From Candidatus Omnitrophica bacterium UBA6210 (GTDB lineage Bacteria > Omnitrophota > Gorgyraeia > Velamenicoccales > Velamenicoccaceae), in NCBI GenBank assembly GCA_002421805.1, contig DISM01000006.1:199182-263181 (forward strand): 64,000 nucleotides of DNA. The letters are read 5' to 3'. Position 1 is the stretch's first letter. Every line of letters starts with the position of its first letter. A model generated the notes under the pieces. It worked only from the letters and a program-made list of their open reading frames with translations. It had not been told where the DNA came from and searched no databases. This document shows positions 5,677 to 64,000 of the stretch, in pieces. Made by a program: the position numbers and the translations under genes.

Positions 5677-6978
5677 ATGATGAACGATCCTTTGGGGGAT
5701 TTTGATTTCAGGGGCAAGAAGACGGCCATCGTGAGCCTGGGCTGCGCCCGTAATACCGTTGATTCGCAGGTATTTCTGCGGGAGGCCAGGCGGCGTGGCG
5801 CCGTCATTTGTCCCCCCGAAGACGCTCGCGTGGTCATGATTAATACTTGCGGTTTCACCCGTGAGGCCAAGGAAGAATCGCTGGGCGTCATTGCGGAGTG
5901 GCTCGACCATAAAAAGAAAAGGAAGGTCGAGAATGTCCTTGTTTTGGGGTGTCTGGCCCAGCGTTATCGGAAAGACATCCGCGAGGGCTACAAGGATATT
6001 GATGTCGTCGGCGGGCTTGTGCAGGAAGCGGACGGGCGGGACCTCGGTGGTTCGCCTGTTCTTTTGACGCCTCGCCATTACGCGTATCTGAAAATATCCG
6101 AAGGGTGCGACAACCGTTGCGCCTATTGCGCGATCCCTTTGATCAAAGGGCGTTCCAAGAGCCGTTCTGAGGCCGAGATCATCGCCGAGGCTGTCCGGCT
6201 GGAGCGTTGCGGTGTCCGGGAGCTGAATATCGTCGGCCAGGATATCACCCTTTATGGTTGTGACGGCCGCACGTTGCGGCCAGGCCTGCCGCTGGTCGGA
6301 TTGGTGGAAAAGATCCTGCGCGCGACCTCCATTCCCTGGATCAGGCTGATGTATCTCCATCCGCAAAGGGTCGGGGAGGATGTGATGGACCTTTTGGGCC
6401 GGCAGAAACGTCTGTGTCCTTACGTCGATCTGCCGCTGCAGCATATCAATGACCGCATCCTCAAGCATATGGGGCGGCCGACGACGCGGCGGGATATTGT
6501 CCGGTTGATCTCGGGGTTACGGAAAAAGGTTGCGTCTCTTGCGCTTCGCACGACGTTCATCGTGGGTTTTCCGGGCGAGACGAAAAAGGAATTTCGGGAG
6601 CTTCTGGAATTTGTCCGGGAGACGCGTTTCGACAAGCTCGGTGCATTTATGTTCTCCCGGGAAGAAGGCACCCGGGCCTACGCTTGCCGCGGGCAGGTGC
6701 CGCAGAAAGAAAAACAGAGACGCTATCACGATCTGATGGAGATGCAGAAAGGCATCTCCTTATCGCTGCTTGAAAAAAAGATCGGCATGACGACGCAGGT
6801 CCTGGTGGAAGAAACTACGCGCGACCGCCGGATGTATCTGGCGCGCACGCCCTGGGACGCGCCGGAGGTCGATGGCTTGATGTATTTGACGTCTTCGAGA
6901 AAGCTCGAGCCGGGCCAGATCGTCGAATGCCGCATCACCGACGCCTTTGAATATGACCTGGCGGGGGAGACCTTATGA
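5677..6978 (+). CDS. rimO: ribosomal protein S12 methylthiotransferase RimO
   Basis: N-terminal LGCARNTVDS motif, radical-SAM CDNRCAYCAIP cluster, and a C-terminal TRAM-like domain. Confidence 0.9.
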   Translation: MMNDPLGDFDFRGKKTAIVSLGCARNTVDSQVFLREARRRGAVICPPEDARVVMINTCGFTREAKEESLGVIAEWLDHKKKRKVENVLVLGCLAQRYRKDIREGYKDIDVVGGLVQEADGRDLGGSPVLLTPRHYAYLKISEGCDNRCAYCAIPLIKGRSKSRSEAEIIAEAVRLERCGVRELNIVGQDITLYGCDGRTLRPGLPLVGLVEKILRATSIPWIRLMYLHPQRVGEDVMDLLGRQKRLCPYVDLPLQHINDRILKHMGRPTTRRDIVRLISGLRKKVASLALRTTFIVGFPGETKKEFRELLEFVRETRFDKLGAFMFSREEGTRAYACRGQVPQKEKQRRYHDLMEMQKGISLSLLEKKIGMTTQVLVEETTRDRRMYLARTPWDAPEVDGLMYLTSSRKLEPGQIVECRITDAFEYDLAGETL

Positions 6979-7553
6979 ACTTGCCCAATTATTTGACCTT
7001 ATCTCGCATCGTTTTGACCTTTGTGATCATGGCGCTTCTCTTCACGAAAAATTTTGCCATGACCTGTGCGGCTTTCCTTGTGTTTTTGGCGGCCTGCGTG
7101 ACGGACCTTCTGGACGGGTGGGTGGCCCGCAAAAAAGGCCTTATTTCCGATTTCGGCAAGATCATGGACCCTCTTGCGGACAAGGTTCTGGTGGTCGGGT
7201 TGTTTTTGACTTTTGTGCAGCTGCAGCTGGTAGGGGCCTGGGTGGTTGTCGTTATCATTGTGCGCGAATTCCTGATTACCGGGATGAGGATTTTTGCACT
7301 TCGTCACGGCGTGGTTCTGGCCGCGGAGAACGCCGGCAAGCATAAGACTGTTTCCCAGATGGCGGCGATCACCTGTATCCTCATTTTTCTTATTCTCAAG
7401 GAGTCGGGGCCATATTTTTCTTTCTGGAACGAAACACTTGAATCCTATTTCCGCACGGGTATTCATGTCATGATCGGCTTGGCCGTGTTTTTCACGGTTT
7501 ATTCCGGCATGGTCTATCTCTGGCGGAACCGCCATCTGATCAGGACGCTATGA
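6975..7553 (+). CDS. pgsA: CDP-diacylglycerol--glycerol-3-phosphate 3-phosphatidyltransferase
   Basis: CDP-alcohol phosphatidyltransferase motif DLLDGWVARK...GKIMDPLADK. ATGA overlap with rimO. Confidence 0.9.
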   Translation: MNLPNYLTLSRIVLTFVIMALLFTKNFAMTCAAFLVFLAACVTDLLDGWVARKKGLISDFGKIMDPLADKVLVVGLFLTFVQLQLVGAWVVVVIIVREFLITGMRIFALRHGVVLAAENAGKHKTVSQMAAITCILIFLILKESGPYFSFWNETLESYFRTGIHVMIGLAVFFTVYSGMVYLWRNRHLIRTL

Positions 7554-8005
7554 AGAGGCATCTGATCAAGCTGCTGTCCACTTTTTTCTATCTCGGTGAA
7601 ATGCCGTTGGCACCGGGCACATGGGGAAGTCTGGGCGGGACGCTCTTGTATCTGGCCCTGGGTCTTGAAACGACGATCGGGCATGTGTGCGTTTTTGCGG
7701 CTGTGACGATCGTCGGGTTCCTTGTCGCCGGCCGCGCGGAGGCCATTTTTGGGACAAAAGACCCCAAGCCCGTCGTTATCGATGAGGTCGCTGGGATTTT
7801 TTTGGTTTTTTTCGGCCTGAATCTGACATGGCCCGTGGTTGTGCTTGGATTTGTCTTATACCGTCTCTTTGATATTTTGAAACCGCCTCCGGCCAGACGG
7901 CTTGAAAAGCTTCCGGGCAGCGCGGGCATCATGCTCGATGACCTTCTGTGCGGGTGCTACGCACAGGTGGCTTTGCGCTTGTTCGGGATGTTGACAGGAT
8001 TTTAA
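7550..8005 (+). CDS. pgpA: phosphatidylglycerophosphatase A
   Basis: PgpA-like sequence (GTWGSLGG...DEVAG...DILKPPP). ATGA overlap with pgsA. Confidence 0.85.
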   Translation: MKRHLIKLLSTFFYLGEMPLAPGTWGSLGGTLLYLALGLETTIGHVCVFAAVTIVGFLVAGRAEAIFGTKDPKPVVIDEVAGIFLVFFGLNLTWPVVVLGFVLYRLFDILKPPPARRLEKLPGSAGIMLDDLLCGCYAQVALRLFGMLTGF

Positions 8006-8216
8006 GGCCGTGCAGGCAAGTAAAAATGACTTGCTCTGAAAATTCCTTTTGGTTACAATGTTATTACTTTATATGAGTTAGATGATACTCTAAAGGCCTC
8101 TGTCGTGCCCGGACGGAGGAGGTGTAGGTCTTCTTTTATTGTTAAACAGGTCAGGTTTTTCCGGGGCGGACATAGCCCGAATGGGCTAACCCGAAGATGT
8201 TACAGAGAAAGGGCAT

Positions 8217-9365
8217 ATGGCTTTTGACCAAGATAGGGGTGGTATAGAGCGCAGGCAGGAAGTCCGTCAGGAAACGCTGGATATGGTCTATAATTTTATC
8301 CGGCGTGGCATCAAAGAACGGGCGACGGATATCCATTGGGAGCCTATCGTGGACTCCGGAGAGGAAGAGATCGTCGTCCGCTTCAGGGTCGACGGTATTT
8401 TAAAAGACATTGAGCGTATCAATCATGAAAAGACAAGACTTGGCTCTCTGATTAATGCCATCAAGATTATGGCGACGATGGACCCGACCAAGAGGCGGCG
8501 CGAGCAAGACGGCAGGTTCACATTTTTATTTGAGAACGTGGAATACGACGTCAGGGTCGCGACCATGCCGACCATCCTGGGTGAAAAGATCGTCATGCGG
8601 CTGATGGACCGCAATAAATACTGCATGAACCTGGATGACCTGGGGATGTCGCAGGATATCCAGCACTGTCTTGACGATATGATTTACAAGCCCGAAGGAT
8701 TCGTTGTGATCAGCGGGCCCACGGGTTCCGGCAAGACGACGAGCTTGTATTCGATCCTGAAACATATTTATACGCGTGAGAAGAATATTTGCACGATCGA
8801 AGATCCCGTGGAAGTGAAGTTTATGGGGATCAATCAGATCCAGGTAGACCATGAGTTCGGCATGACTTTTGTTTCGGGATTGCGCGCCATCATGCGCCAG
8901 GACCCGAATATCATCGCGGTCGGCGAGATCCGGGATGTCGAGACCGTGCGCACCGCCCTTCAGGCGGCGCTGGCGGGTTCGATGATCTTCTCGACGCTGC
9001 ATGCCCGCGACGCCGTCAATACGATCGTGCGGCTCCTGGACATGGGCGTTGAGCCTTTCTTCTTGGCAACGGCCCTGACGGGTGTCGTGACGCAGCGCCT
9101 GGTGAGACTCGTGTGCAAGATCTGCAAGGGAAAAGGCTGTATGCAGTGTGCCAATACCGGCTACAAGAGGCGCACCGGGATCTTTGAGGTGCTGCGCATC
9201 AACGAGCCTTTGCGCCAGCTGATCCTTCAAAAGGCTTCGGCAAATGAATTGCGGACAGCCGCCTTGGAGCAGGGGATGATGCCTTTCTCCAAGTCCATCG
9301 AGCCTCTCATCGCTCAGGGGGCGACGACCAAAGAAGAAGTAGACCGCGTCCTCGCGCTGGAGTAG
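8217..9365 (+). CDS. GspE/PilB-family secretion/pilus ATPase core lacking the N1 (MshEN/T2SSE_N) domain
   Basis: Starts at the ATDIHWEP...RFRVDG segment. Has Walker A GPTGSGKTT, VGEIRD, TLHARDA, RLLDMGVEPFF and a CKICKGKGCMQC Cys cluster. Confidence 0.85.
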   Translation: MAFDQDRGGIERRQEVRQETLDMVYNFIRRGIKERATDIHWEPIVDSGEEEIVVRFRVDGILKDIERINHEKTRLGSLINAIKIMATMDPTKRRREQDGRFTFLFENVEYDVRVATMPTILGEKIVMRLMDRNKYCMNLDDLGMSQDIQHCLDDMIYKPEGFVVISGPTGSGKTTSLYSILKHIYTREKNICTIEDPVEVKFMGINQIQVDHEFGMTFVSGLRAIMRQDPNIIAVGEIRDVETVRTALQAALAGSMIFSTLHARDAVNTIVRLLDMGVEPFFLATALTGVVTQRLVRLVCKICKGKGCMQCANTGYKRRTGIFEVLRINEPLRQLILQKASANELRTAALEQGMMPFSKSIEPLIAQGATTKEEVDRVLALE

Positions 9366-9371
9366 TTTCTC

Positions 9372-9959
9372 ATGTCAAAGATCCCGAGAAAATTAGGCGA
9401 TCTCCTTGTTGAAAACGGTTTATTGACCGAAAGCCAGCTTCTGGAAGCCCTCGAGACCCAGAGGCGCGAGAAAAAGCTTCTGGGCGAGATCATCGTCGAT
9501 CTTGGTTTTACGACAAAAGAGAAGCTTGACAGCACGCTGGCCCGCCAGTATGGGTCCCGCCTGGGCGAGTTTTTGATCGGCCGGAGGTTGATCAGTTTCG
9601 ACCAGCTTCAGTCGGCCATGGATGAGCAGAGGAATTCGATGAAATCCCTGGGGGAGATCCTGATCGATAAGGGCTATATTGCCGAGGCGGACCTGATGGA
9701 AGGACTTTCTCTGCAGCATAATCTGCCGTATGTGCGCCTGGCGGAGCAGGATATCAATCCCGAGGCTGTGTCGTGCGTCCCGATGGACGCTTTGAAAAAA
9801 TATTGCGTGTTCCCGATCCGGGTGGAGGATAATATGCTCGTCGTGGCCACGGCCAACCCGGAAGATTTTATCGCAGAGTCTGACCTGAAATTCCTCTCCG
9901 GCATGTATATCAAGTTTGTGCTGTCTTCAAAGTCCGAGATCCTTTCCTTCCTTGAATAA
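9372..9959 (+). CDS. stand-alone T2SSE_N/MshEN-type domain protein with a duplicated 24-aa motif pair
   Basis: First pair: RKLGDLLVENGLLTESQLLEALETQ-RREKK-LLGEIIVDLGFTTKEKLDSTLARQ. Second pair: RLGEFLIGRRLISFDQLQSAMDEQ-RNSMK-SLGEILIDKGYIAEADLMEGLSLQ. These are followed by an LPYVRL... subdomain. The gene starts 6 nt after the ATPase stop. Confidence 0.8.
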   Translation: MSKIPRKLGDLLVENGLLTESQLLEALETQRREKKLLGEIIVDLGFTTKEKLDSTLARQYGSRLGEFLIGRRLISFDQLQSAMDEQRNSMKSLGEILIDKGYIAEADLMEGLSLQHNLPYVRLAEQDINPEAVSCVPMDALKKYCVFPIRVEDNMLVVATANPEDFIAESDLKFLSGMYIKFVLSSKSEILSFLE

Positions 9960-11142: not shown

Positions 11143-11294
11143 GATCTTCGGGATAGCCCGCTATAGAGACACCGGCGGGCACGGGTGAAAGTCCCGGCTG
11201 GCAGTGAAAGCCTGCGAGCCTGCCGCTAAAACTGCGGTGAGGCAGACCAAGCGAGATTCTTGGGCCAATAGTAAAGCCTAGACGAGAGAAGATC
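11143..11294 (+). promoter_or_regulatory. FMN riboswitch (RFN element)
   Basis: P1 is gatcttc (11143-11149) paired with gaagatc (11288-11294). Core blocks are GGGUGAAAGUCCC, GGCAGUGAAAGCCUGCGAGCC and AGUAAAGCCUAGACGAGAGAAG. It lies upstream of ribBA. Confidence 0.8.
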
Positions 11295-11326
11295 AGGACA
11301 ACCGGCTGTATGGTATTGTCATCTAT

Positions 11327-16313: not shown

Positions 16314-16391
16314 CGGGGAGTAGCGCAGCTTGGCTAGCGCGTTTGGTTCGGGACCAAAAGGTCGTGGGTTCAAATCCCACCTCCCCGACCA
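16314..16391 (+). tRNA. tRNA-Pro (anticodon CGG), CCA encoded
   Basis: Hand-folded cloverleaf. Acceptor CGGGGAG/CTCCCCG, D stem GCGC/GCGC, anticodon stem TTTGG/CCAAA with loop TTCGGGA, T arm GTGGG-TTCAAAT-CCCAC, then discriminator A and CCA. Confidence 0.9.
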
Positions 16392-26675: not shown

Positions 26676-27044
26676 GTGACGATGAAGACGCAAACCATGG
26701 TTTCCCGTATGGAAGCAGCTGCCAACAGCGACAACAGGATCTTTTACCGTAATCCCCTGTTTAACGTCAAGACTCATGTCAAGAACGTCAATACCGGCGA
26801 GAGGCTTGAGGCGTTTGTCAAAGATGTCAGCGGTTCGGGGATGGGGCTTTCGACCTCCCGCGTTTTTCTTCCCGGGACGATCTTCGAGATCGCGCTTGAA
26901 ATCCCCGATGGTTTCGGTCCTTTGAAACTCCTGGGCCGCGTCGTCTGGTCCAGGGAGATGGATACCCTGGGCTGCAGGACGGGTGTCGTTGTGCTGAACC
27001 CAAGGTTTATGTCTGTATCGCGGATCCTTAAATTGTTTTTTTAA
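26676..27044 (+). CDS. PilZ-domain protein (single domain)
   Basis: RxxxR (RIFYR) and DxSxxG (DVSGSG) motifs about 25 aa apart, with a beta-rich remainder. The start could be 26676 (GTG) or 26682 (ATG). Confidence 0.75.
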   Translation: MTMKTQTMVSRMEAAANSDNRIFYRNPLFNVKTHVKNVNTGERLEAFVKDVSGSGMGLSTSRVFLPGTIFEIALEIPDGFGPLKLLGRVVWSREMDTLGCRTGVVVLNPRFMSVSRILKLFF

Positions 27045-61052: not shown

Positions 61053-61215
61053 AACACCCGCACGTCTTTTTTATTCCTCAAAGCCGGCCGTGGCCTATTT
61101 TTCGGCCTTTCGGTGAAGGAAAACGTTGACGCGCCGCGCTAATTATGTTACCTTATATTACATAAATATTTACAGCAAGAAGTTAAGACCTCATGGGTTA
61201 AAATGGAGAGAGGCC

Positions 61216-62589
61216 ATGGCCAATTTAACTAAGAAACTATCGATCGCATCCAGATCCCTCAGGCCGCAGCTCATCATTGCATTCTGCCTCATGTCCATCA
61301 TCCCCATCCTGGCGCTTTTGAATTTTGTTTTTCCCAGCCTTCTGCCGAAAAATTACCTGGCTATCATCATTTTTGCCATCGTTATCATGTCCCTTTTGGG
61401 GTTTATCGTCGTCAAGCGCATCGTCGACCCCATCATCGAGATCAATTCCGAGGTCAAGGTCATTGCCTCCGGCGAGCTCAGCCACCAGATCAACATCTCC
61501 CGCGAGGACGAGATCGGCGAACTGAGCCATTCCCTGAACCAGATGACACAACGTATCAAGAACAATATGGACGAGCTCAAGATCTACGGCGAACGCACCA
61601 AGGACATCAATCTCCAGATCAACCGCCAGGTGATCGCCCTGAACGGCCTTTTGCAGATCAGCAACTTGATCACAAAGAACGCCCATCTCAAGGATGTCTA
61701 CGAAGTTACAATCTCCAAGCTCGCCCAGATGGCGAATTCGTCTTTGGCGATCCTGATCTTCAAGAAGGATGAAGGGTTCGAGGTCTCGGCACAGTACGGC
61801 CTCGGGGAGGAGACGGTCAGCTGTCTGATGATGGCCTCTAATAGCGGTTTATTGTTCCATTTGTTGGCGGCTTCCAAGCCGTTCCTGAAGGTGGACGATA
61901 CGACCCAGGGCGGCATCAGCGAAGAATTCATGAAGCTTCTGGGCGCGCGCAACCTCCTGGTATATCCGATCCTGATGCAGGGAAAACCTCACGGGATCAT
62001 CGCGATCGGCAACATGCTCGATAAATTCAAGTATTCCAATGACGACGTCGAGTTGATGAGCATTTTTGCCAAGCAGCTGTCGATCGCCGTCGAGAATGAT
62101 TTCCTGACGCAGAAAGTCCGGGATCTGGAGGTCAAGGACGCCCTGACAGGGCTTTTCAACAAGCGCTATATCACGGTCAGGTTTGAGGAAGAGATCATGC
62201 GCGCCATCTCCCTGCAGGAGCCGTGTTCTTTTGTGGCCGTTGTGGTGAATAACATGCAGGAGTACCGCAAGGCTTACGGCGACGCGGCTGCGGACGATGT
62301 CCTGGTGAGGGTCGCGGCATTGCTGAAATCTTCCATCCGCGAGATCGACCGGGCGGCCCGCCTGGATGAAGGCGTGTTCGGCATCGTCCTGCCTCAGAAA
62401 AACAAACGCCAGGCCGAGCACGTGGCTGAACAGTTCAAAGACAAGCTCCGGGCGGCGTTCCAGGGCGCCGATATGAAGAAGAAGGTACAGTTCGGCTTCA
62501 GTATTGTTGAGAACCCTATCGACGGCGCCGACTCCCTCACGCTGTTGCGCAAGGCCATGGAATTATCGGGAGCAGGGATCACCCTGTAG
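61216..62589 (+). CDS. membrane-anchored HAMP-GAF-GGDEF protein with a degenerate active site
   Basis: Two TM helices with a roughly 7-aa outer loop, a HAMP domain (DEIGELSHSLNQM) and a GAF domain. The GGDEF fold begins DALTGLFNKRY but reads REID-RAARL-DEGVF at the RxxD-x5-GG[DE]EF position. The start follows a GGAGAGAGG RBS. Confidence 0.85.
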   Translation: MANLTKKLSIASRSLRPQLIIAFCLMSIIPILALLNFVFPSLLPKNYLAIIIFAIVIMSLLGFIVVKRIVDPIIEINSEVKVIASGELSHQINISREDEIGELSHSLNQMTQRIKNNMDELKIYGERTKDINLQINRQVIALNGLLQISNLITKNAHLKDVYEVTISKLAQMANSSLAILIFKKDEGFEVSAQYGLGEETVSCLMMASNSGLLFHLLAASKPFLKVDDTTQGGISEEFMKLLGARNLLVYPILMQGKPHGIIAIGNMLDKFKYSNDDVELMSIFAKQLSIAVENDFLTQKVRDLEVKDALTGLFNKRYITVRFEEEIMRAISLQEPCSFVAVVVNNMQEYRKAYGDAAADDVLVRVAALLKSSIREIDRAARLDEGVFGIVLPQKNKRQAEHVAEQFKDKLRAAFQGADMKKKVQFGFSIVENPIDGADSLTLLRKAMELSGAGITL

Positions 62590-62638: not shown

Positions 62639-63091
62639 ATGACGTCATCTTTCAAGAGAGTCACAACGAAACAACTGGGTGAGCTCCTCATCGAGAGGAA
62701 GATCATCACCGCCGAGCAACTGCAGAAGGCGCTGGAATATCAACGCGTCAATGGCGGGCTGGTCGGCGAAATCCTTGTCCAGCTGGGTTTCTCCAGAGAG
62801 GAAGATATCGCCCAGGTGCTGACGGCGCAATACGGTTTTCCCTATCTGCCCCTGATCAATTACGATATTGATACGGAGGTCGCGCGCGTCATCCCCGAGC
62901 AGGTTGCACGTCAGTATTGTCTGATCCCGATCGATAAGATCGGCAATAACCTTACCGTCGCCATGTCGAACCCTCTCAACACGCAGGCCATCGAAGACGT
63001 GGAAATGATCACTCAGTGCGTGGTCCAGGCGTTCGTCAGCACCACGACTGACATTAAGAAGGCCATTGAAAGAAGCTACGCTAAGAAGTAA
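62639..63091 (+). CDS. stand-alone T2SSE_N/MshEN-type domain protein
   Basis: QLGELLIERKIITAEQLQKALEYQ-RVNGG-LVGEILVQLGFSREEDIAQVLTAQ, then FPYLPL... and ...LTVAMSNPLN. 150 aa. Confidence 0.8.
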   Translation: MTSSFKRVTTKQLGELLIERKIITAEQLQKALEYQRVNGGLVGEILVQLGFSREEDIAQVLTAQYGFPYLPLINYDIDTEVARVIPEQVARQYCLIPIDKIGNNLTVAMSNPLNTQAIEDVEMITQCVVQAFVSTTTDIKKAIERSYAKK

Positions 63092-63241: not shown

Positions 63242-63265
63242 TTATTTTTTATCAGAGGAATGAAA

Positions 63266-64000
63266 ATGAGTTCGCTGCGAGAGCGCCTGCAGGACATCCT
63301 CATTAAAAACAAGCTGATATCCGAAGACGACCTCAAGCTGGCCCTGCAGGTCCAGAAAGAGCATGGCGGCAGCCTGAGCGATTGCCTGGTGAAGCTGAAC
63401 CTTATCGGCGAGAAAGACCTGCTTGTGGCGCTCAGCGAAGGCCTCGGGTTCCCGCCGATCTCTCTGGCGCGTTTCAAGATCGAACCCGAGATCCTCAAGC
63501 TTATCCCTAAGGACATGGCCAAGCATTACCAGATCGTCCCCGTCGCCAAAATGGGGCATACGCTGACCGTGGCCATGGCCGACCCCCTGAACATATTTGC
63601 TATTGATGACGTCAAGGCCTTGACAGGTTTTGAGATCAATCCCATCATTGCCGACCAGAAGGAGATCCTGCAGACCATCGAGAAATATTATGAGGAGCCG
63701 GCGACCCAGGTCTTGGATGAGATCATCAAGGACATCTCGGACATGGATATCGAGGTGGTCCGCGCCTCGCGTGAGGGCGGGCTCGATGCCCAGGAGCTCG
63801 TGCGCCTGACAAAAGAGGCGCCGGTCATCAAGATCACGAATCTGCTTTTGGAAAAGGGCATCGAGATGAATGCCAGCGATATCCTGATCGAGCCCTGGGA
63901 GCGCTCCATGCGCGTGCGCGTGCGCGTGGACGGGATGCTGCGTGAGATCGAGGGCCCGCCGCTGAAGTTCCATGCGCCGATCGTTTCGCGCATCAAGGTC
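63266..64000 (+). CDS. pilB: type IV pilus assembly ATPase PilB / GspE family, N-terminal 245 codons (3' end outside window)
   Basis: My own translation gives MSSLRERLQDILIKNKLISEDDLKLALQVQKEHGGSLSDCLVKL... (T2SSE_N), then ...APVIKITNLLLEKGIEMNASDILIEPWERSMRVRVRVDGML. There is no stop before the window end. The AGAGG RBS lies 7 nt upstream. Confidence 0.88.
   Translation, partial: MSSLRERLQDILIKNKLISEDDLKLALQVQKEHGGSLSDCLVKLNLIGEKDLLVALSEGLGFPPISLARFKIEPEILKLIPKDMAKHYQIVPVAKMGHTLTVAMADPLNIFAIDDVKALTGFEINPIIADQKEILQTIEKYYEEPATQVLDEIIKDISDMDIEVVRASREGGLDAQELVRLTKEAPVIKITNLLLEKGIEMNASDILIEPWERSMRVRVRVDGMLREIEGPPLKFHAPIVSRIKV

What the first reader, a model, noticed from the sequence alone, without database searches (positions are those of the whole stretch)
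8217..9959. PilB/GspE-type ATPase split into a core ORF and a downstream ORF carrying a duplicated MshEN-type N-domain, in permuted order
**Seen in the sequence.**
- The 382-aa ORF opens directly at the ATDIHWEP..RFRVDG segment.
- It carries Walker A (GPTGSGKTT, about aa 167), VGEIRD, TLHARDA, RLLDMGVEPFF and a compressed CxxC-x4-CxxC cluster. These features fit the PilB/GspE clade rather than PilT.
- It lacks the roughly 150-170-aa N1 domain.
- Six nt after its stop, a 195-aa ORF consists only of that missing domain type.
- This second ORF contains two consecutive copies of the paired 24-residue motif with 5-residue spacers (RKLGDLLVENGLLTESQLLEALETQ-RREKK-LLGEIIVDLGFTTKEKLDSTLARQ, then RLGEFLIGRRLISFDQLQSAMDEQ-RNSMK-SLGEILIDKGYIAEADLMEGLSLQ).

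**Established.** This tandem 24-aa motif arrangement is the c-di-GMP binding site of the MshE N-domain (MshEN).

**Inference.** The sensor domain may be expressed in trans, after the motor, and may bind twice the usual ligand load. The pair is orphan. It is flanked by pgpA and thpR, with no pilus or T2SS platform, pilin or secretin genes nearby.
Basis: partly seen in the sequence, partly recalled or inferred. Interest (0 to 1): 0.7.

Follow-up and report, generated by a model that had tools for sequence, protein, structure and literature searches.

The report
Pilus-type motor with separate c-di-GMP sensor
A Velamenicoccus-like Omnitrophota bacterium keeps a pilus/secretion-type ATPase that lacks its usual N-terminal sensor domain next to a small separate protein with two predicted cyclic-di-GMP sites, an old conserved gene pair and an unusual variant of a known signalling design, not an error or a fresh gene split.

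Summary
ORF1 (8217-9365, 382 aa) is a PilB/GspE-class ATPase without an N1 domain. ORF2 (9372-9959, 195 aa) is an extra 53-residue c-di-GMP motif pair followed by a complete MshEN domain.

It is not a misassembly or a recent split.
- The identical pair lies on at least 22 independent contigs.
- The window is about 86% identical in DNA and collinear with Ca. Velamenicoccus archaeovorus LiM.
- The pair persists down to about 48-50% protein identity across Omnitrophota.
- Every ORF2-family gene with readable upstream sequence follows an ORF1-family ATPase.
- The reading-frame relation varies between relatives, so these are two polypeptides.

ORF1 belongs to an N1-less clade (bootstrap 91) with a compact CxxC-x4-CxxC motif and an altered His box (TGH to AGS). 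Two lineages keep the ATPase but lack ORF2, and ORF2's domain is not specifically related to any one PilB N1. "Split and permuted" is therefore unproven as history.

The pair is only locally orphan. The window's 3' end carries a second stand-alone MshEN gene and a canonical full-length pilB.

Best reading (inferred): ORF2 is a two-site c-di-GMP sensor acting in trans on ORF1. This is a new variant of a known kind, of moderate interest.

The parts
8217..9365 (+). ORF1: 382-aa PilB/GspE-class ATPase (N2 + C-terminal ATPase domain) with no N1/MshEN domain
   Evidence: Pfam T2SSE covers aa 23-377, E 4e-106. NCBIfam scores: GspE 404, PilB 374, PilT 166 bits. PDB sequences: PilB 291 bits, PilT 105. 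It sits in an N1-less clade with bootstrap 91.
8715..8741 (+). Walker A, GPTGSGKTT (aa 167-175)
   Evidence: Read directly from the sequence. Conserved in the family alignment.
8796..8813 (+). Asp box, IEDPVE (aa 194-199)
   Evidence: The role of the Asp-box glutamate in magnesium coordination is taken from PMC5424180.
8910..8936 (+). Atypical Walker B plus catalytic glutamate, IIAVGEIRD (aa 232-240)
8973..9014 (+). Variant His box, AGSMIFSTLHARDA. The first Thr/His of the canonical TGH...LHT are replaced (A, S). The second His is kept.
   Evidence: In the alignment the whole ORF1 clade has AG(S/C/A/T), while every other PilB/GspE/PilT sequence compared has TGH, apart from one PilT-like outgroup with TGQ. 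The roles of T411, H413 and H420 in Geobacter PilB come from PMC5424180.
9114..9149 (+). Compact tetracysteine motif, CKIC-KGKG-CMQC (CxxC-x4-CxxC). It lacks the loop of about 30-49 residues seen in canonical PilB/GspE.
   Evidence: Canonical relatives show an insertion of about 26 aa at this point of the ORF1 profile.
9359..9362 (+). GGAG, 9 nt upstream of the ORF2 ATG and inside the end of ORF1. Probable ribosome-binding site allowing coupled translation (inference).
   Evidence: Read from the sequence.
9372..9959 (+). ORF2: 195-aa stand-alone protein, MshEN_N + MshEN_N + MshEN_C
   Evidence: NF053729 matches in two stretches, 112.8 bits; Pfam MshEN covers aa 116-194. AF2 pLDDT 87.8. Foldseek top hit 5HTL. 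The family keeps a constant 194-196 aa length from 95% to 49% identity.
9390..9548 (+). c-di-GMP motif pair 1 (aa 7-59): KLGDLLVENGLLTESQLLEALETQ, spacer RREKK, LLGEIIVDLGFTTKEKLDSTLARQ
   Evidence: L2, G3, L17, L21 and Q24 are near-invariant in 86 homologues. The K/L first residues match PilF GSPII-B.
9558..9716 (+). c-di-GMP motif pair 2 (aa 63-115): RLGEFLIGRRLISFDQLQSAMDEQ, spacer RNSMK, SLGEILIDKGYIAEADLMEGLSLQ. This window has R72 where the family mostly has Gly.
   Evidence: It aligns to motif positions of Geobacter PilB N1 and MshE.
9717..9953 (+). MshEN_C alpha/beta subdomain (aa 116-194)
   Evidence: Pfam PF05157, E 2.5e-17. The model shows strands 146-152, 155-160 and 179-184.
6975..8005 (+). 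Upstream context: pgsA (6975-7553) and pgpA (7550-8005). In deeper relatives pgpA abuts or overlaps the ATPase start; here a 211-nt spacer follows pgpA.
62639..63091 (+). Context: second stand-alone MshEN protein (150 aa, one motif pair) directly upstream of canonical pilB
   Evidence: NF053729 scores 62.1 bits. ORF listing. A 148-aa counterpart occupies the same position in L064.
63260..64000 (+). Context: start of a canonical full-length PilB (MshEN N1 + T2SSE). It runs off the window end; 247 aa are visible.
   Evidence: By synteny with L064/L065 it heads a pilB-pilB2-pilC-pilins-pilMNO-secretin cluster.

Best explanation
The locus is a conserved two-gene module of Omnitrophota.

**ORF1.** It is a hexameric PilB/GspE-class assembly ATPase that has no N1 domain. 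It carries a compact zinc-type tetracysteine motif and a modified His box.

**ORF2.** It is a soluble receptor with two predicted cyclic-di-GMP sites, built as an extra MshEN_N four-helix bundle plus a complete MshEN domain.

**Expression.** The two genes are co-transcribed. In most relatives they also form a unit with pgsA-pgpA. Given the 6-nt gap and internal GGAG, translation is probably coupled.

**Proposed mechanism (inferred).** ORF2 supplies in trans what N1 supplies in cis in MshE, PilB and PilF. It binds c-di-GMP, probably two molecules per chain. It then docks on the ATPase and/or on a membrane platform, so that filament or secretion activity follows c-di-GMP levels.

**What is shown and what is inferred.** Shown here: domain identities, predicted fold, conservation, strict gene linkage, and the fact that these are two separate polypeptides. 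Inferred: ligand binding, stoichiometry, physical interaction, and which machine is driven. Candidate machines are the type IVa pilus cluster that starts 53 kb downstream in this window, or the Tad system reported for this genus.
For: **Domain identities.** ORF1. ORF2.

**Purifying selection on both motif pairs.** L2, G3, L17, L21 and Q24 are near-invariant in 86 sequences spanning 49-95% identity. Pair 1 fits the extended consensus (R/K/L)LGxx..., and its K/L combination is that of the 6 nM PilF GSPII-B site. An isolated MshEN_N binds c-di-GMP on its own (PMC5013675).

**Linkage.**
- Every ORF2-family gene with upstream sequence follows an ORF1-family ATPase on the same strand.
- This holds in 13 of 13 species-representative genome loci and 17 of 17 metagenome loci.
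- It also holds in L013, L015, L016, L060 and L063.
- Gaps are 6-174 nt, mostly 35 nt or less.
- Below about 50% identity, hits switch abruptly to N1 domains fused to 566-580-aa PilBs.

**Two polypeptides.** The frame relation is 0, 1 or 2 in different relatives.

**Not an artefact.** At least 22 contigs from independent samples carry the identical pair.

**Precedents.** A second stand-alone MshEN gene sits directly upstream of canonical pilB, both here and in L064. Trans regulation of PilB through its N domain is known from the PilB(N)-PilZ complex, 7LKM/7LKO.
Against: - No binding or interaction data exist, and multimer modelling was not possible with these tools.
- Two ORF1 lineages lack ORF2 (L061; L032). 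The ATPase can therefore work without it.
- Motif 2b starts with S/T, which is outside the published consensus. In this window, motif 2a has R72 at the conserved Gly position. Site 2 may be weaker or inactive here.
- The His-box changes (T411/H413 equivalents lost) could mean altered or low ATPase activity.
- No platform, pilin or secretin gene is adjacent.
- The only GGDEF protein in the window is degenerate, DEGVF. c-di-GMP synthesis in this organism was not demonstrated.
Confidence: 0.55

Rival explanations
1. True gene fission with permutation. An ancestral MshEN-ATPase fusion was tandemly duplicated. The first copy lost its 5' N1 part and the second lost its 3' ATPase part, leaving ATPase then N1 as two genes. 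This concerns origin only and is compatible with trans function.
For: - The nearest relatives outside the clade are mostly full-length MshEN+T2SSE proteins.
- ORF2 residues 62-195 align end to end with PilB N1 domains, at up to 116 bits.
- The pair reaches the deepest sampled branch of the ORF1 family (L063).
Against: - The N1-less clade (bootstrap 91) includes P0217 and P0233. P0217's ATPase is not followed by an ORF2-like gene, and lineages L061 and L032 also lack ORF2.
- ORF2's MshEN is about equally distant (25-43% identity) from N1 domains of unrelated phyla, from this genome's own PilB N1, and from its stand-alone MshEN.
- ORF2's first motif pair is closest to the stand-alone 150-aa MshEN (46% identity), not to its own second pair (35%).
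- The one apparently fused 'ancestor-like' protein, P0216, is a chimera.
Confidence: 0.15
2. ORF2 is an independent c-di-GMP receptor whose client is something other than ORF1. Candidates are the canonical PilB/type IVa pilus machine, a Tad system, or an envelope or division factor. On this view the adjacency reflects only a frozen housekeeping operon.
For: - The whole neighbourhood (rpsO-pnp-ftsK-rodZ-rimO-pgsA-pgpA ... thpR-cinA-rib) is collinear across the same depth of divergence. Gene order is generally frozen here.
- ORF1 survives without ORF2 in two lineages.
- MshEN domains regulate many unrelated outputs (PMC5013675).
- The canonical PilB N1 in this window has substitutions at motif position G3 (Q and S) and at Q24 (G). 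It might therefore need an external sensor.
Against: - ORF2 is never seen apart from an ORF1-type ATPase in about 35 loci.
- Where ORF1 sits in a different context (L032), ORF2 is absent. It has not stayed behind in the old neighbourhood of any sampled genome.
- The canonical pilB already has its own adjacent stand-alone MshEN.
Confidence: 0.22
3. Artefact or decay. The pair is a frameshifted or nonsense-interrupted single gene, a misassembly, or a pseudogene remnant.
For: In this window the two ORFs happen to be in the same frame and are separated only by TAG TTT CTC.
Against: - The identical pair occurs on at least 22 independently assembled contigs.
- Both proteins keep constant length over 50% sequence divergence.
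- The frame relation differs even in the closest relatives: LiM has a 7-nt gap and L023 an 8-nt gap.
- The domain order ATPase then N1 is not that of any intact PilB.
- Functional motifs are conserved.
Confidence: 0.02
4. ORF1 is no longer a motor. With its altered His box and missing N1, it acts as a nucleotide-dependent regulator or scaffold, and ORF2 is its signalling input.
For: - T411/H413 equivalents are replaced clade-wide. These residues mediate inter-subunit contacts at the ATP site in Geobacter PilB (PMC5424180).
- No platform gene is adjacent.
Against: Walker A, the Asp box, the catalytic Glu, the gamma-phosphate-contacting second His, the arginine-containing N2 motifs and all four Cys are retained under strong conservation.
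Confidence: 0.1

Closest known systems
MshE / PilB / PilF-type assembly ATPases with N-terminal MshEN (GSPII) domains (V. cholerae MshE, PDB 5HTL; T. thermophilus PilF; Geobacter PilB)
   Same: - Same ATPase class.
- Same sensor fold and the same 24+5+24 motif.
- PilF shows that several GSPII domains, and even a three-motif GSPII-C, can feed one motor. Its K/L-type site binds at 6 nM.
   Different: - Here the sensor is a separate polypeptide encoded after the motor, not an N-terminal fusion.
- The motor has no N1 at all, a compact CxxC-x4-CxxC motif and a TGH to AGS His box.
FimX-PilZ-PilB of Xanthomonas/Pseudomonas: c-di-GMP control of PilB in trans (PDB 7LKM/7LKO; PMC5595344 listed)
   Same: A c-di-GMP signal reaches a PilB-type motor through separate proteins rather than through the motor's own domain. 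7LKM and 7LKO are among the top structural neighbours of ORF2.
   Different: There the receptor is a degenerate EAL protein plus a PilZ adaptor that binds the motor's own, non-binding N1. Here the detached protein is itself the MshEN-type domain and the motor lacks N1.
N1-less PilB-like ATPases such as ComGA
   Same: A PilB/GspE-like core of similar length without an MshEN domain. ORF1 scores 229.8 bits on NF041000.
   Different: - The score is below the ComGA cut-off of 300, so ORF1 is not a member.
- ComGA is encoded in a competence pilus operon, a point from general knowledge and not tested here. It has no adjacent MshEN protein.
Stand-alone and tandem MshEN_N proteins noted bioinformatically by Wang et al. 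2016 ((MshEN_N)2, fusions to REC, GT, CheA and others)
   Same: The modular use of the 53-residue site, including duplicated sites, is already described. P0089 and P0092-P0094 are such (MshEN_N)2 proteins. P0090 carries the same MshEN_N+MshEN module fused to DUF6982.
   Different: The ORF2 family is a distinct 194-196-aa architecture (MshEN_N + full MshEN) in fixed partnership with an ATPase gene. All named source records but one are labelled Omnitrophota. No paper found here describes it.

Membership tests
PilB/GspE-class type II/IV secretion ATPase (Pfam T2SSE PF00437) | Match to the T2SSE profile above the gathering score, over N2 + CTD | tested here: met
   355.1 bits against a cut-off of 24.9; profile positions 11-370 of 370.
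PilB/GspE-class type II/IV secretion ATPase | Walker A, Asp box, atypical Walker B with catalytic Glu | tested here: met
   GPTGSGKTT, IEDPVE and IIAVGEIRD are present and conserved in the family.
PilB/GspE-class type II/IV secretion ATPase | Complete His box (T-G-H ... L-H-T) | tested here: not met
   ORF1 has A-G-S ... L-H-A. Only the second His is kept, and the change is clade-wide. Residue roles come from PMC5424180.
PilB/GspE-class type II/IV secretion ATPase | Tetracysteine zinc motif, which separates PilB/GspE from PilT/PilU | tested here: met
   Four Cys are present as CxxC-x4-CxxC. Canonical relatives have 30-49 residues between the pairs. Zinc binding was not tested.
PilB equivalog (TIGR02538) / GspE equivalog (TIGR02533) | Score above NCBI's equivalog cut-off (full-length architecture including N1) | tested here: not met
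   PilB scores 373.8 against 675.65. GspE scores 404.2 against 630.25.
PilB/GspE functional system membership | Encoded with a platform protein (PilC/GspF), pilins and a secretin | tested here: not met
   None lies within about 10 kb on either side, nor elsewhere in the window up to 62.6 kb. A pilB cluster head begins at 62.6 kb and has its own PilB.
PilT/PilU retraction ATPases (TIGR01420) | Score above the subfamily cut-off; grouping with PilT | tested here: not met
   166.3 bits against 319.1. PDB PilT scores 105 bits against PilB 291. PilT sequences fall outside the PilB/GspE group, which has bootstrap 94.
ComGA (NF041000) | Score above the equivalog cut-off | tested here: not met
   229.8 bits against 300.
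MshEN domain (PF05157 + NF053729) | Two 24-residue motifs joined by a 5-residue spacer | tested here: met
   Met twice, at aa 7-59 and 63-115. NF053729 scores 112.8 bits in two stretches. Key positions are conserved. Deviations: first residue L (motif 1b) and S (motif 2b); R72 in place of Gly (motif 2a).
MshEN domain | Four-helix bundle plus alpha/beta MshEN_C fold | tested here: met
   AF2 pLDDT 87.8. Foldseek against 5HTL gives TM 0.83 normalised to the target and rmsd 2.2 A over 134 columns. Pfam covers aa 116-194.
MshEN domain | [quoted passage not shown] | not testable with these tools
   Needs ITC or DRaCALA. Only the motif fit to published consensus sequences is available.

The most novel reading that the evidence does not exclude
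Omnitrophota may run a two-component, c-di-GMP-gated motor. A detachable dual-site MshEN subunit (ORF2) would load two c-di-GMP molecules. It would then recruit or activate an N1-less PilB-type ATPase whose inter-subunit His-box contacts have been rewired. The module is co-expressed with phosphatidylglycerol synthesis genes (pgsA-pgpA). It may drive a machine other than the canonical type IVa pilus, for instance a Tad-like or secretion apparatus used in the epibiotic or predatory lifestyle. That idea is suggested by the basal clade member P0217, which sits in a secretin/RcpC/CpaE-CpaF cluster.
Probability: 0.25. Interest if true: 0.6.

Novelty: new variant of a known kind. Interest (0 to 1): 0.4.

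Why it matters
MshEN is one of the highest-affinity c-di-GMP receptor modules. It is normally studied as a cis-acting N-terminal domain of pilus and secretion motors. A conserved case where the module is a separate, duplicated subunit next to a motor with no N1 would be a natural 'split' system. It would allow dissection of how N1 communicates with the ATPase ring, including stoichiometry, recruitment versus allostery, and the roles of the His box and zinc loop.

Omnitrophota such as Velamenicoccus are ultra-small epibionts or predators whose pili and Tad systems are thought to be central to host attachment (PMC10066038). A dedicated c-di-GMP-gated motor would be a concrete handle on how they regulate that behaviour. 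The practical value is moderate: the parts are known, and the arrangement and its strict conservation are what is new.

Tried and rejected
- **Stop-codon read-through or frameshift fusion.** The ORFs are in frame here. They are out of frame in the closest relatives, and frames vary across the family. Rejected.
- **P0216 (532 aa) as a natural fused version of ORF1.** Its first 399 aa are 99% identical to the canonical Omnitrophota PilB P0368. Its last third is 73% identical to ORF1, with a 9-residue deletion at the junction. It is treated as a chimera and not used.
- **Riboswitch or known RNA in the 211-nt leader (8006-8216).** No Rfam hit at gathering score, and none at E up to 5.
- **Promoter and terminator scans.** Nothing above shuffle expectation around the pair. 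A conserved AT-rich stretch at 8021-8070 was seen but not pursued.
- **Origin of ORF2 from pairwise and profile scores.** No N1 domain stands out as the closest. Unresolved.
- **NJ tree.** The backbone among canonical PilB/GspE sequences is unresolved, with supports of 0-13. Whether the compact Cys motif arose once or several times cannot be said.
- **ORF1-ORF2 complex modelling.** Not attempted.
- **Kizina et al. 2022 (PMC9004380).** This paper has the LiM proteome but is not held. Expression of the pair could not be checked.
Full report
**1. What is in the sequence**

ORF1 spans 8217-9365 on the + strand and encodes 382 aa. It ends in TAG at 9363-9365, followed by six bases (TTTCTC). ORF2 spans 9372-9959 and encodes 195 aa.

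| Motif | Residues |
|---|---|
| ATDIHWEP | 36-43 |
| RFRVDG | 55-60 |
| Walker A GPTGSGKTT | 167-175 |
| IEDPVE | 194-199 |
| IIAVGEIRD | 232-240 |
| AGSMIFSTLHARDA | 253-266 |
| CKICKGKGCMQC | 300-311 |

A GGAG lies 9 nt before the ORF2 start codon, inside the end of ORF1.

**2. Identity of ORF1**

- Pfam T2SSE covers residues 23-377, profile positions 11-370 of 370, E 4e-106. No MshEN/N1 match is found.
- NCBIfam ranks GspE (404 bits) and PilB (374) far above PilT (166). All are below the equivalog cut-offs, which expect a full-length protein.
- Against PDB sequences, Geobacter PilB scores 291 bits, GspE 281, PilF 278 and PilT 105.
- In a neighbour-joining tree of 68 ATPase cores, all PilB/GspE-like sequences separate from the PilT outgroups with bootstrap 94.
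- The ORF1 family joins two other N1-less proteins, P0233 and P0217, in a clade with bootstrap 91. The core family has bootstrap 100.

So the refuting condition "clusters with PilT/PilU" is not met.

**3. Peculiarities of the ORF1 clade**

- Canonical relatives carry 30-49 residues between the two CxxC pairs. ORF1 has four. The ORF1 profile splits at exactly that point when aligned to canonical PilBs, where they have an insertion of about 26 aa.
- Similar compact motifs occur sporadically in other PilB-like proteins with a full N1, a half N1 (MshEN_C only) or no N1.
- The clade replaces the canonical His-box TGH...LHTND with AG(S/C/A/T)...LHA(R/K)D. Every other PilB, GspE and PilT compared keeps TGH, apart from one PilT-like outgroup with TGQ.
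- In Geobacter PilB, T411 and H413 form the inter-subunit contact at the ATP site, and H420 touches the gamma-phosphate (PMC5424180). ORF1 keeps only the H420 equivalent.
- Walker A, the Asp box, the catalytic Glu and the N2 arginine motifs are intact.

**4. Identity of ORF2**

- NCBIfam's 53-residue c-di-GMP motif model (NF053729) matches twice, 112.8 bits against a cut-off of 38. Pfam MshEN covers residues 116-194.
- Residues 60-192 align end to end with the N1 domains of Geobacter PilB (about 80 bits) and MshE. Residues 33-174 align with the three-motif GSPII-C of PilF.
- An AF2 model built from 45 homologues has pLDDT 87.8. It shows two four-helix bundles followed by an alpha/beta subdomain.
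- The best PDB neighbour is MshE-N bound to c-di-GMP (5HTL), with TM 0.83 normalised to the target and rmsd 2.2 A.

ORF2 is therefore MshEN_N + (MshEN_N + MshEN_C). That is one extra ligand-site module in front of one complete domain.

**5. Are the ligand sites likely functional?**

- In 86 family members spanning 49-95% identity, motif positions L2, G3, L17, L21 and Q24 are near-invariant in all four half-motifs.
- These are the positions that hold the guanines in MshE (PMC5013675).
- The first residues are K/R (1a), L (1b), K/R (2a) and S/T (2b).
- The K/L combination of pair 1 is that of PilF GSPII-B, which binds c-di-GMP at 6 nM. That work extended the consensus to (R/K/L)LG... (PMC11731258).
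- S/T at 2b lies outside the published consensus. This window's R72 replaces a mostly conserved Gly, so site 2 is less certain.
- An isolated MshEN_N binds c-di-GMP on its own, and (MshEN_N)2 architectures have been noted before.
- Binding itself was not testable here.

**6. Artefact, pseudogene or real?**

- The identical 382+195 pair with the 6-nt gap is on at least 22 independently assembled contigs from Logan, NCBI and JGI samples.
- The window is collinear with, and about 86% identical in DNA to, Ca. Velamenicoccus archaeovorus LiM. That organism is classified in Omnitrophota.
- ORF2 homologues keep 194-196 aa from 95% to 49% identity. ORF1 homologues keep 373-382 aa from 100% to 48%.
- The frame relation between the two ORFs is 0, 1 or 2 in different relatives, including the closest ones.

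The in-frame TAG here is therefore coincidence, and the products are separate polypeptides.

**7. Linkage**

- Among species-representative genomes, 13 of 14 Omnitrophota loci with an ORF1-type ATPase have ORF2 immediately downstream.
- Additional confirmations come from ORF2 at 50% identity (L013, L015), L016, L060 and the deepest branch L063.
- In a metagenome scan seeded with the ORF2 alignment, all 17 family hits with readable upstream sequence follow an ORF1-type ATPase.
- The next-best hits, at 43% identity or less, are all N1 domains fused to PilBs of 563 aa or more, mostly 566-584 aa.
- ORF2 is thus never seen without ORF1.
- The converse is not true. L061 keeps pgpA-ATPase-thpR with no ORF2. 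L032 has the ATPase in another context, with a PilZ protein and a PilT-like ATPase 2 kb downstream.
- These two lineages branch inside the two main subclades of the family. Two losses of ORF2 is the simplest history.

**8. Was it a "split in permuted order"?**

As a description of the layout, yes. As an event, it is unproven.

- The N1-less state is shared by the whole bootstrap-91 clade. That clade includes P0217, which sits in a secretin/SAF/RcpC/CpaE-CpaF (Tad-like) cluster without any ORF2-like gene.
- ORF2's complete MshEN is 25-43% identical to N1 domains of unrelated phyla, to this genome's own PilB N1 (35%) and to its stand-alone MshEN (33%).
- ORF2's first motif pair is closest to that stand-alone MshEN, at 46%.
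- The only apparently fused relative, P0216, is a chimera of a canonical Omnitrophota PilB and an ORF1-type gene.

**9. Is it orphan?**

Locally, yes. The neighbours are rpsO, pnp, ftsK, rodZ, rimO, pgsA and pgpA upstream. Downstream are thpR, cinA, rib genes, nusB and ligA, then the dcw cluster, ileS, lspA, lgt, murA, mreBCD, pbp2 and rodA.

In deeper relatives pgpA abuts or overlaps the ATPase start. The pair therefore belongs to a rimO-pgsA-pgpA transcription unit there. In this lineage a 211-nt spacer intervenes.

The 3' end of the window tells a different story. It holds:

- a radical-SAM gene;
- a HAMP/GAF protein with a degenerate GGDEF domain, DEGVF (61126-62589);
- a second stand-alone MshEN protein (62639-63091; NF053729 62 bits);
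- a canonical full-length PilB starting at 63260.

In other Omnitrophota the same rodA-radical SAM-GGDEF context continues as PilT, MshEN (148 aa), PilB, PilB2, PilC, pilins, PilM, PilO and a secretin. The genome therefore has a canonical pilus motor of its own, and ORF1/ORF2 is an additional paralogous pair. Stand-alone MshEN genes next to PilB-type genes are a recurring feature of this lineage.

**10. Most likely mechanism**

- **Shown:** a PilB/GspE-class ATPase core and a two-site MshEN protein are encoded as a strictly linked, long-conserved, closely spaced gene pair.
- **Inferred:** ORF2 binds c-di-GMP, probably two molecules. It acts in trans as the N1 domain acts in cis in MshE, PilB and PilF, tethering or activating the ATPase at a membrane platform. 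In GspE, N1 is the domain that binds GspL. That is general knowledge; 2BH1 appears only weakly. An N1-less motor would need such an adaptor.
- **Precedent:** trans control of PilB by c-di-GMP exists in the FimX-PilZ-PilB system (7LKM/7LKO).
- **Unknown:** which machine is served. Candidates are the T4aP cluster 53 kb away and the Tad complex reported for V. archaeovorus (PMC10066038).

**11. Comparison with known systems, and novelty**

Each part is known:

- T2SSE ATPases;
- N1-less PilB-like ATPases such as ComGA (ORF1 scores below that model's cut-off);
- MshEN domains, duplicated MshEN_N modules, and multi-GSPII PilF.

What is not described in the papers found is this family-level arrangement. 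It combines a detached dual-site MshEN protein in fixed partnership with an N1-less, His-box-variant, compact-Cys PilB-type ATPase. All named source records but one are labelled Omnitrophota. I rate it a new variant of a known kind, with moderate interest (0.4).

**12. Caveats**

- The tree is neighbour-joining on 356 columns, with an unresolved backbone.
- No coordinates or PAE were available for complex modelling.
- c-di-GMP synthesis capacity of the organism was not established.
- Expression data for the pair could not be accessed.

Noticed in passing
window 62639-63091 and 63260-64000: A second stand-alone MshEN protein (150 aa, one motif pair, NF053729 62 bits) lies directly upstream of a canonical full-length pilB that runs off the window end. 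That PilB's own N1 has Q and S at the conserved Gly3 positions and G at Q24 of motif II, so it may bind c-di-GMP poorly. The same MshEN-then-pilB order occurs in L064/L065.
   Followed up: partly
window 61126-62589: A HAMP/GAF/GGDEF-type protein next to the pilus cluster head has a degenerate active-site motif (RLDEGVF in place of RxGGDEF). The L064 counterpart is also degenerate (RLSGDTF). It is possibly a receptor or scaffold and not a cyclase.
   Followed up: partly
window 26682-27044: A 120-aa PilZ-domain protein with intact RxxxR and DxSxxG motifs is encoded between mraZ and rsmH at the head of the division/cell-wall (dcw) cluster. This places a c-di-GMP receptor type in an unusual position.
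   Followed up: partly
window 11167-11297 and 16314-16388: An FMN riboswitch (70.2 bits) lies upstream of ribBA, and there is a tRNA gene. Both are ordinary.
   Followed up: no
window 8006-8216; L021 9473-9958: The pgpA-ATPase spacer is 211 nt here and about 480 nt longer in Ca. V. archaeovorus LiM. It is absent in deeper relatives, where the genes abut or overlap. A stretch of about 50 nt (8021-8070) is 93-94% conserved in L020 and L023. There is no Rfam match.
   Followed up: partly
P0216 (JGI contig, 6775 bp): A public 532-aa 'PilB' is a chimera. Residues 1-399 are 99% identical to the canonical Omnitrophota PilB P0368. The last third is 73% identical to ORF1, with a 9-residue deletion at the GEIRD junction. 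It is probably an assembly or recombination artefact between the two paralogues.
   Followed up: yes
L062 8001-11310: The basal N1-less relative P0217 (368 aa, 46% identity) sits in a Tad-like cluster: a secretin with TonB_C, SAF and RcpC, then this ATPase, then a 727-aa CpaE/ParA-T2SSE fusion. Two ATPases in a Tad-type cluster is unusual.
   Followed up: no
L032 9965-14428: In an Omnitrophota lineage without ORF2, the ORF1-type ATPase is followed by a CT398-like coiled-coil/zinc-ribbon protein, RNase H, a PilZ protein and a PilT-like ATPase. This may be an alternative c-di-GMP input.
   Followed up: partly
P0219-P0232: About 1000-aa proteins with two complete PilB/GspE-type ATPase cores in one chain (four matched stretches) are among the best-scoring representatives for ORF1. 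Most have two tetracysteine motifs.
   Followed up: no
window 9585-9587 (ORF2 residue R72): This species has Arg at motif 2a position 10, where 60 of 86 family members have the turn-forming Gly. It may weaken the second site in this species specifically.
   Followed up: no
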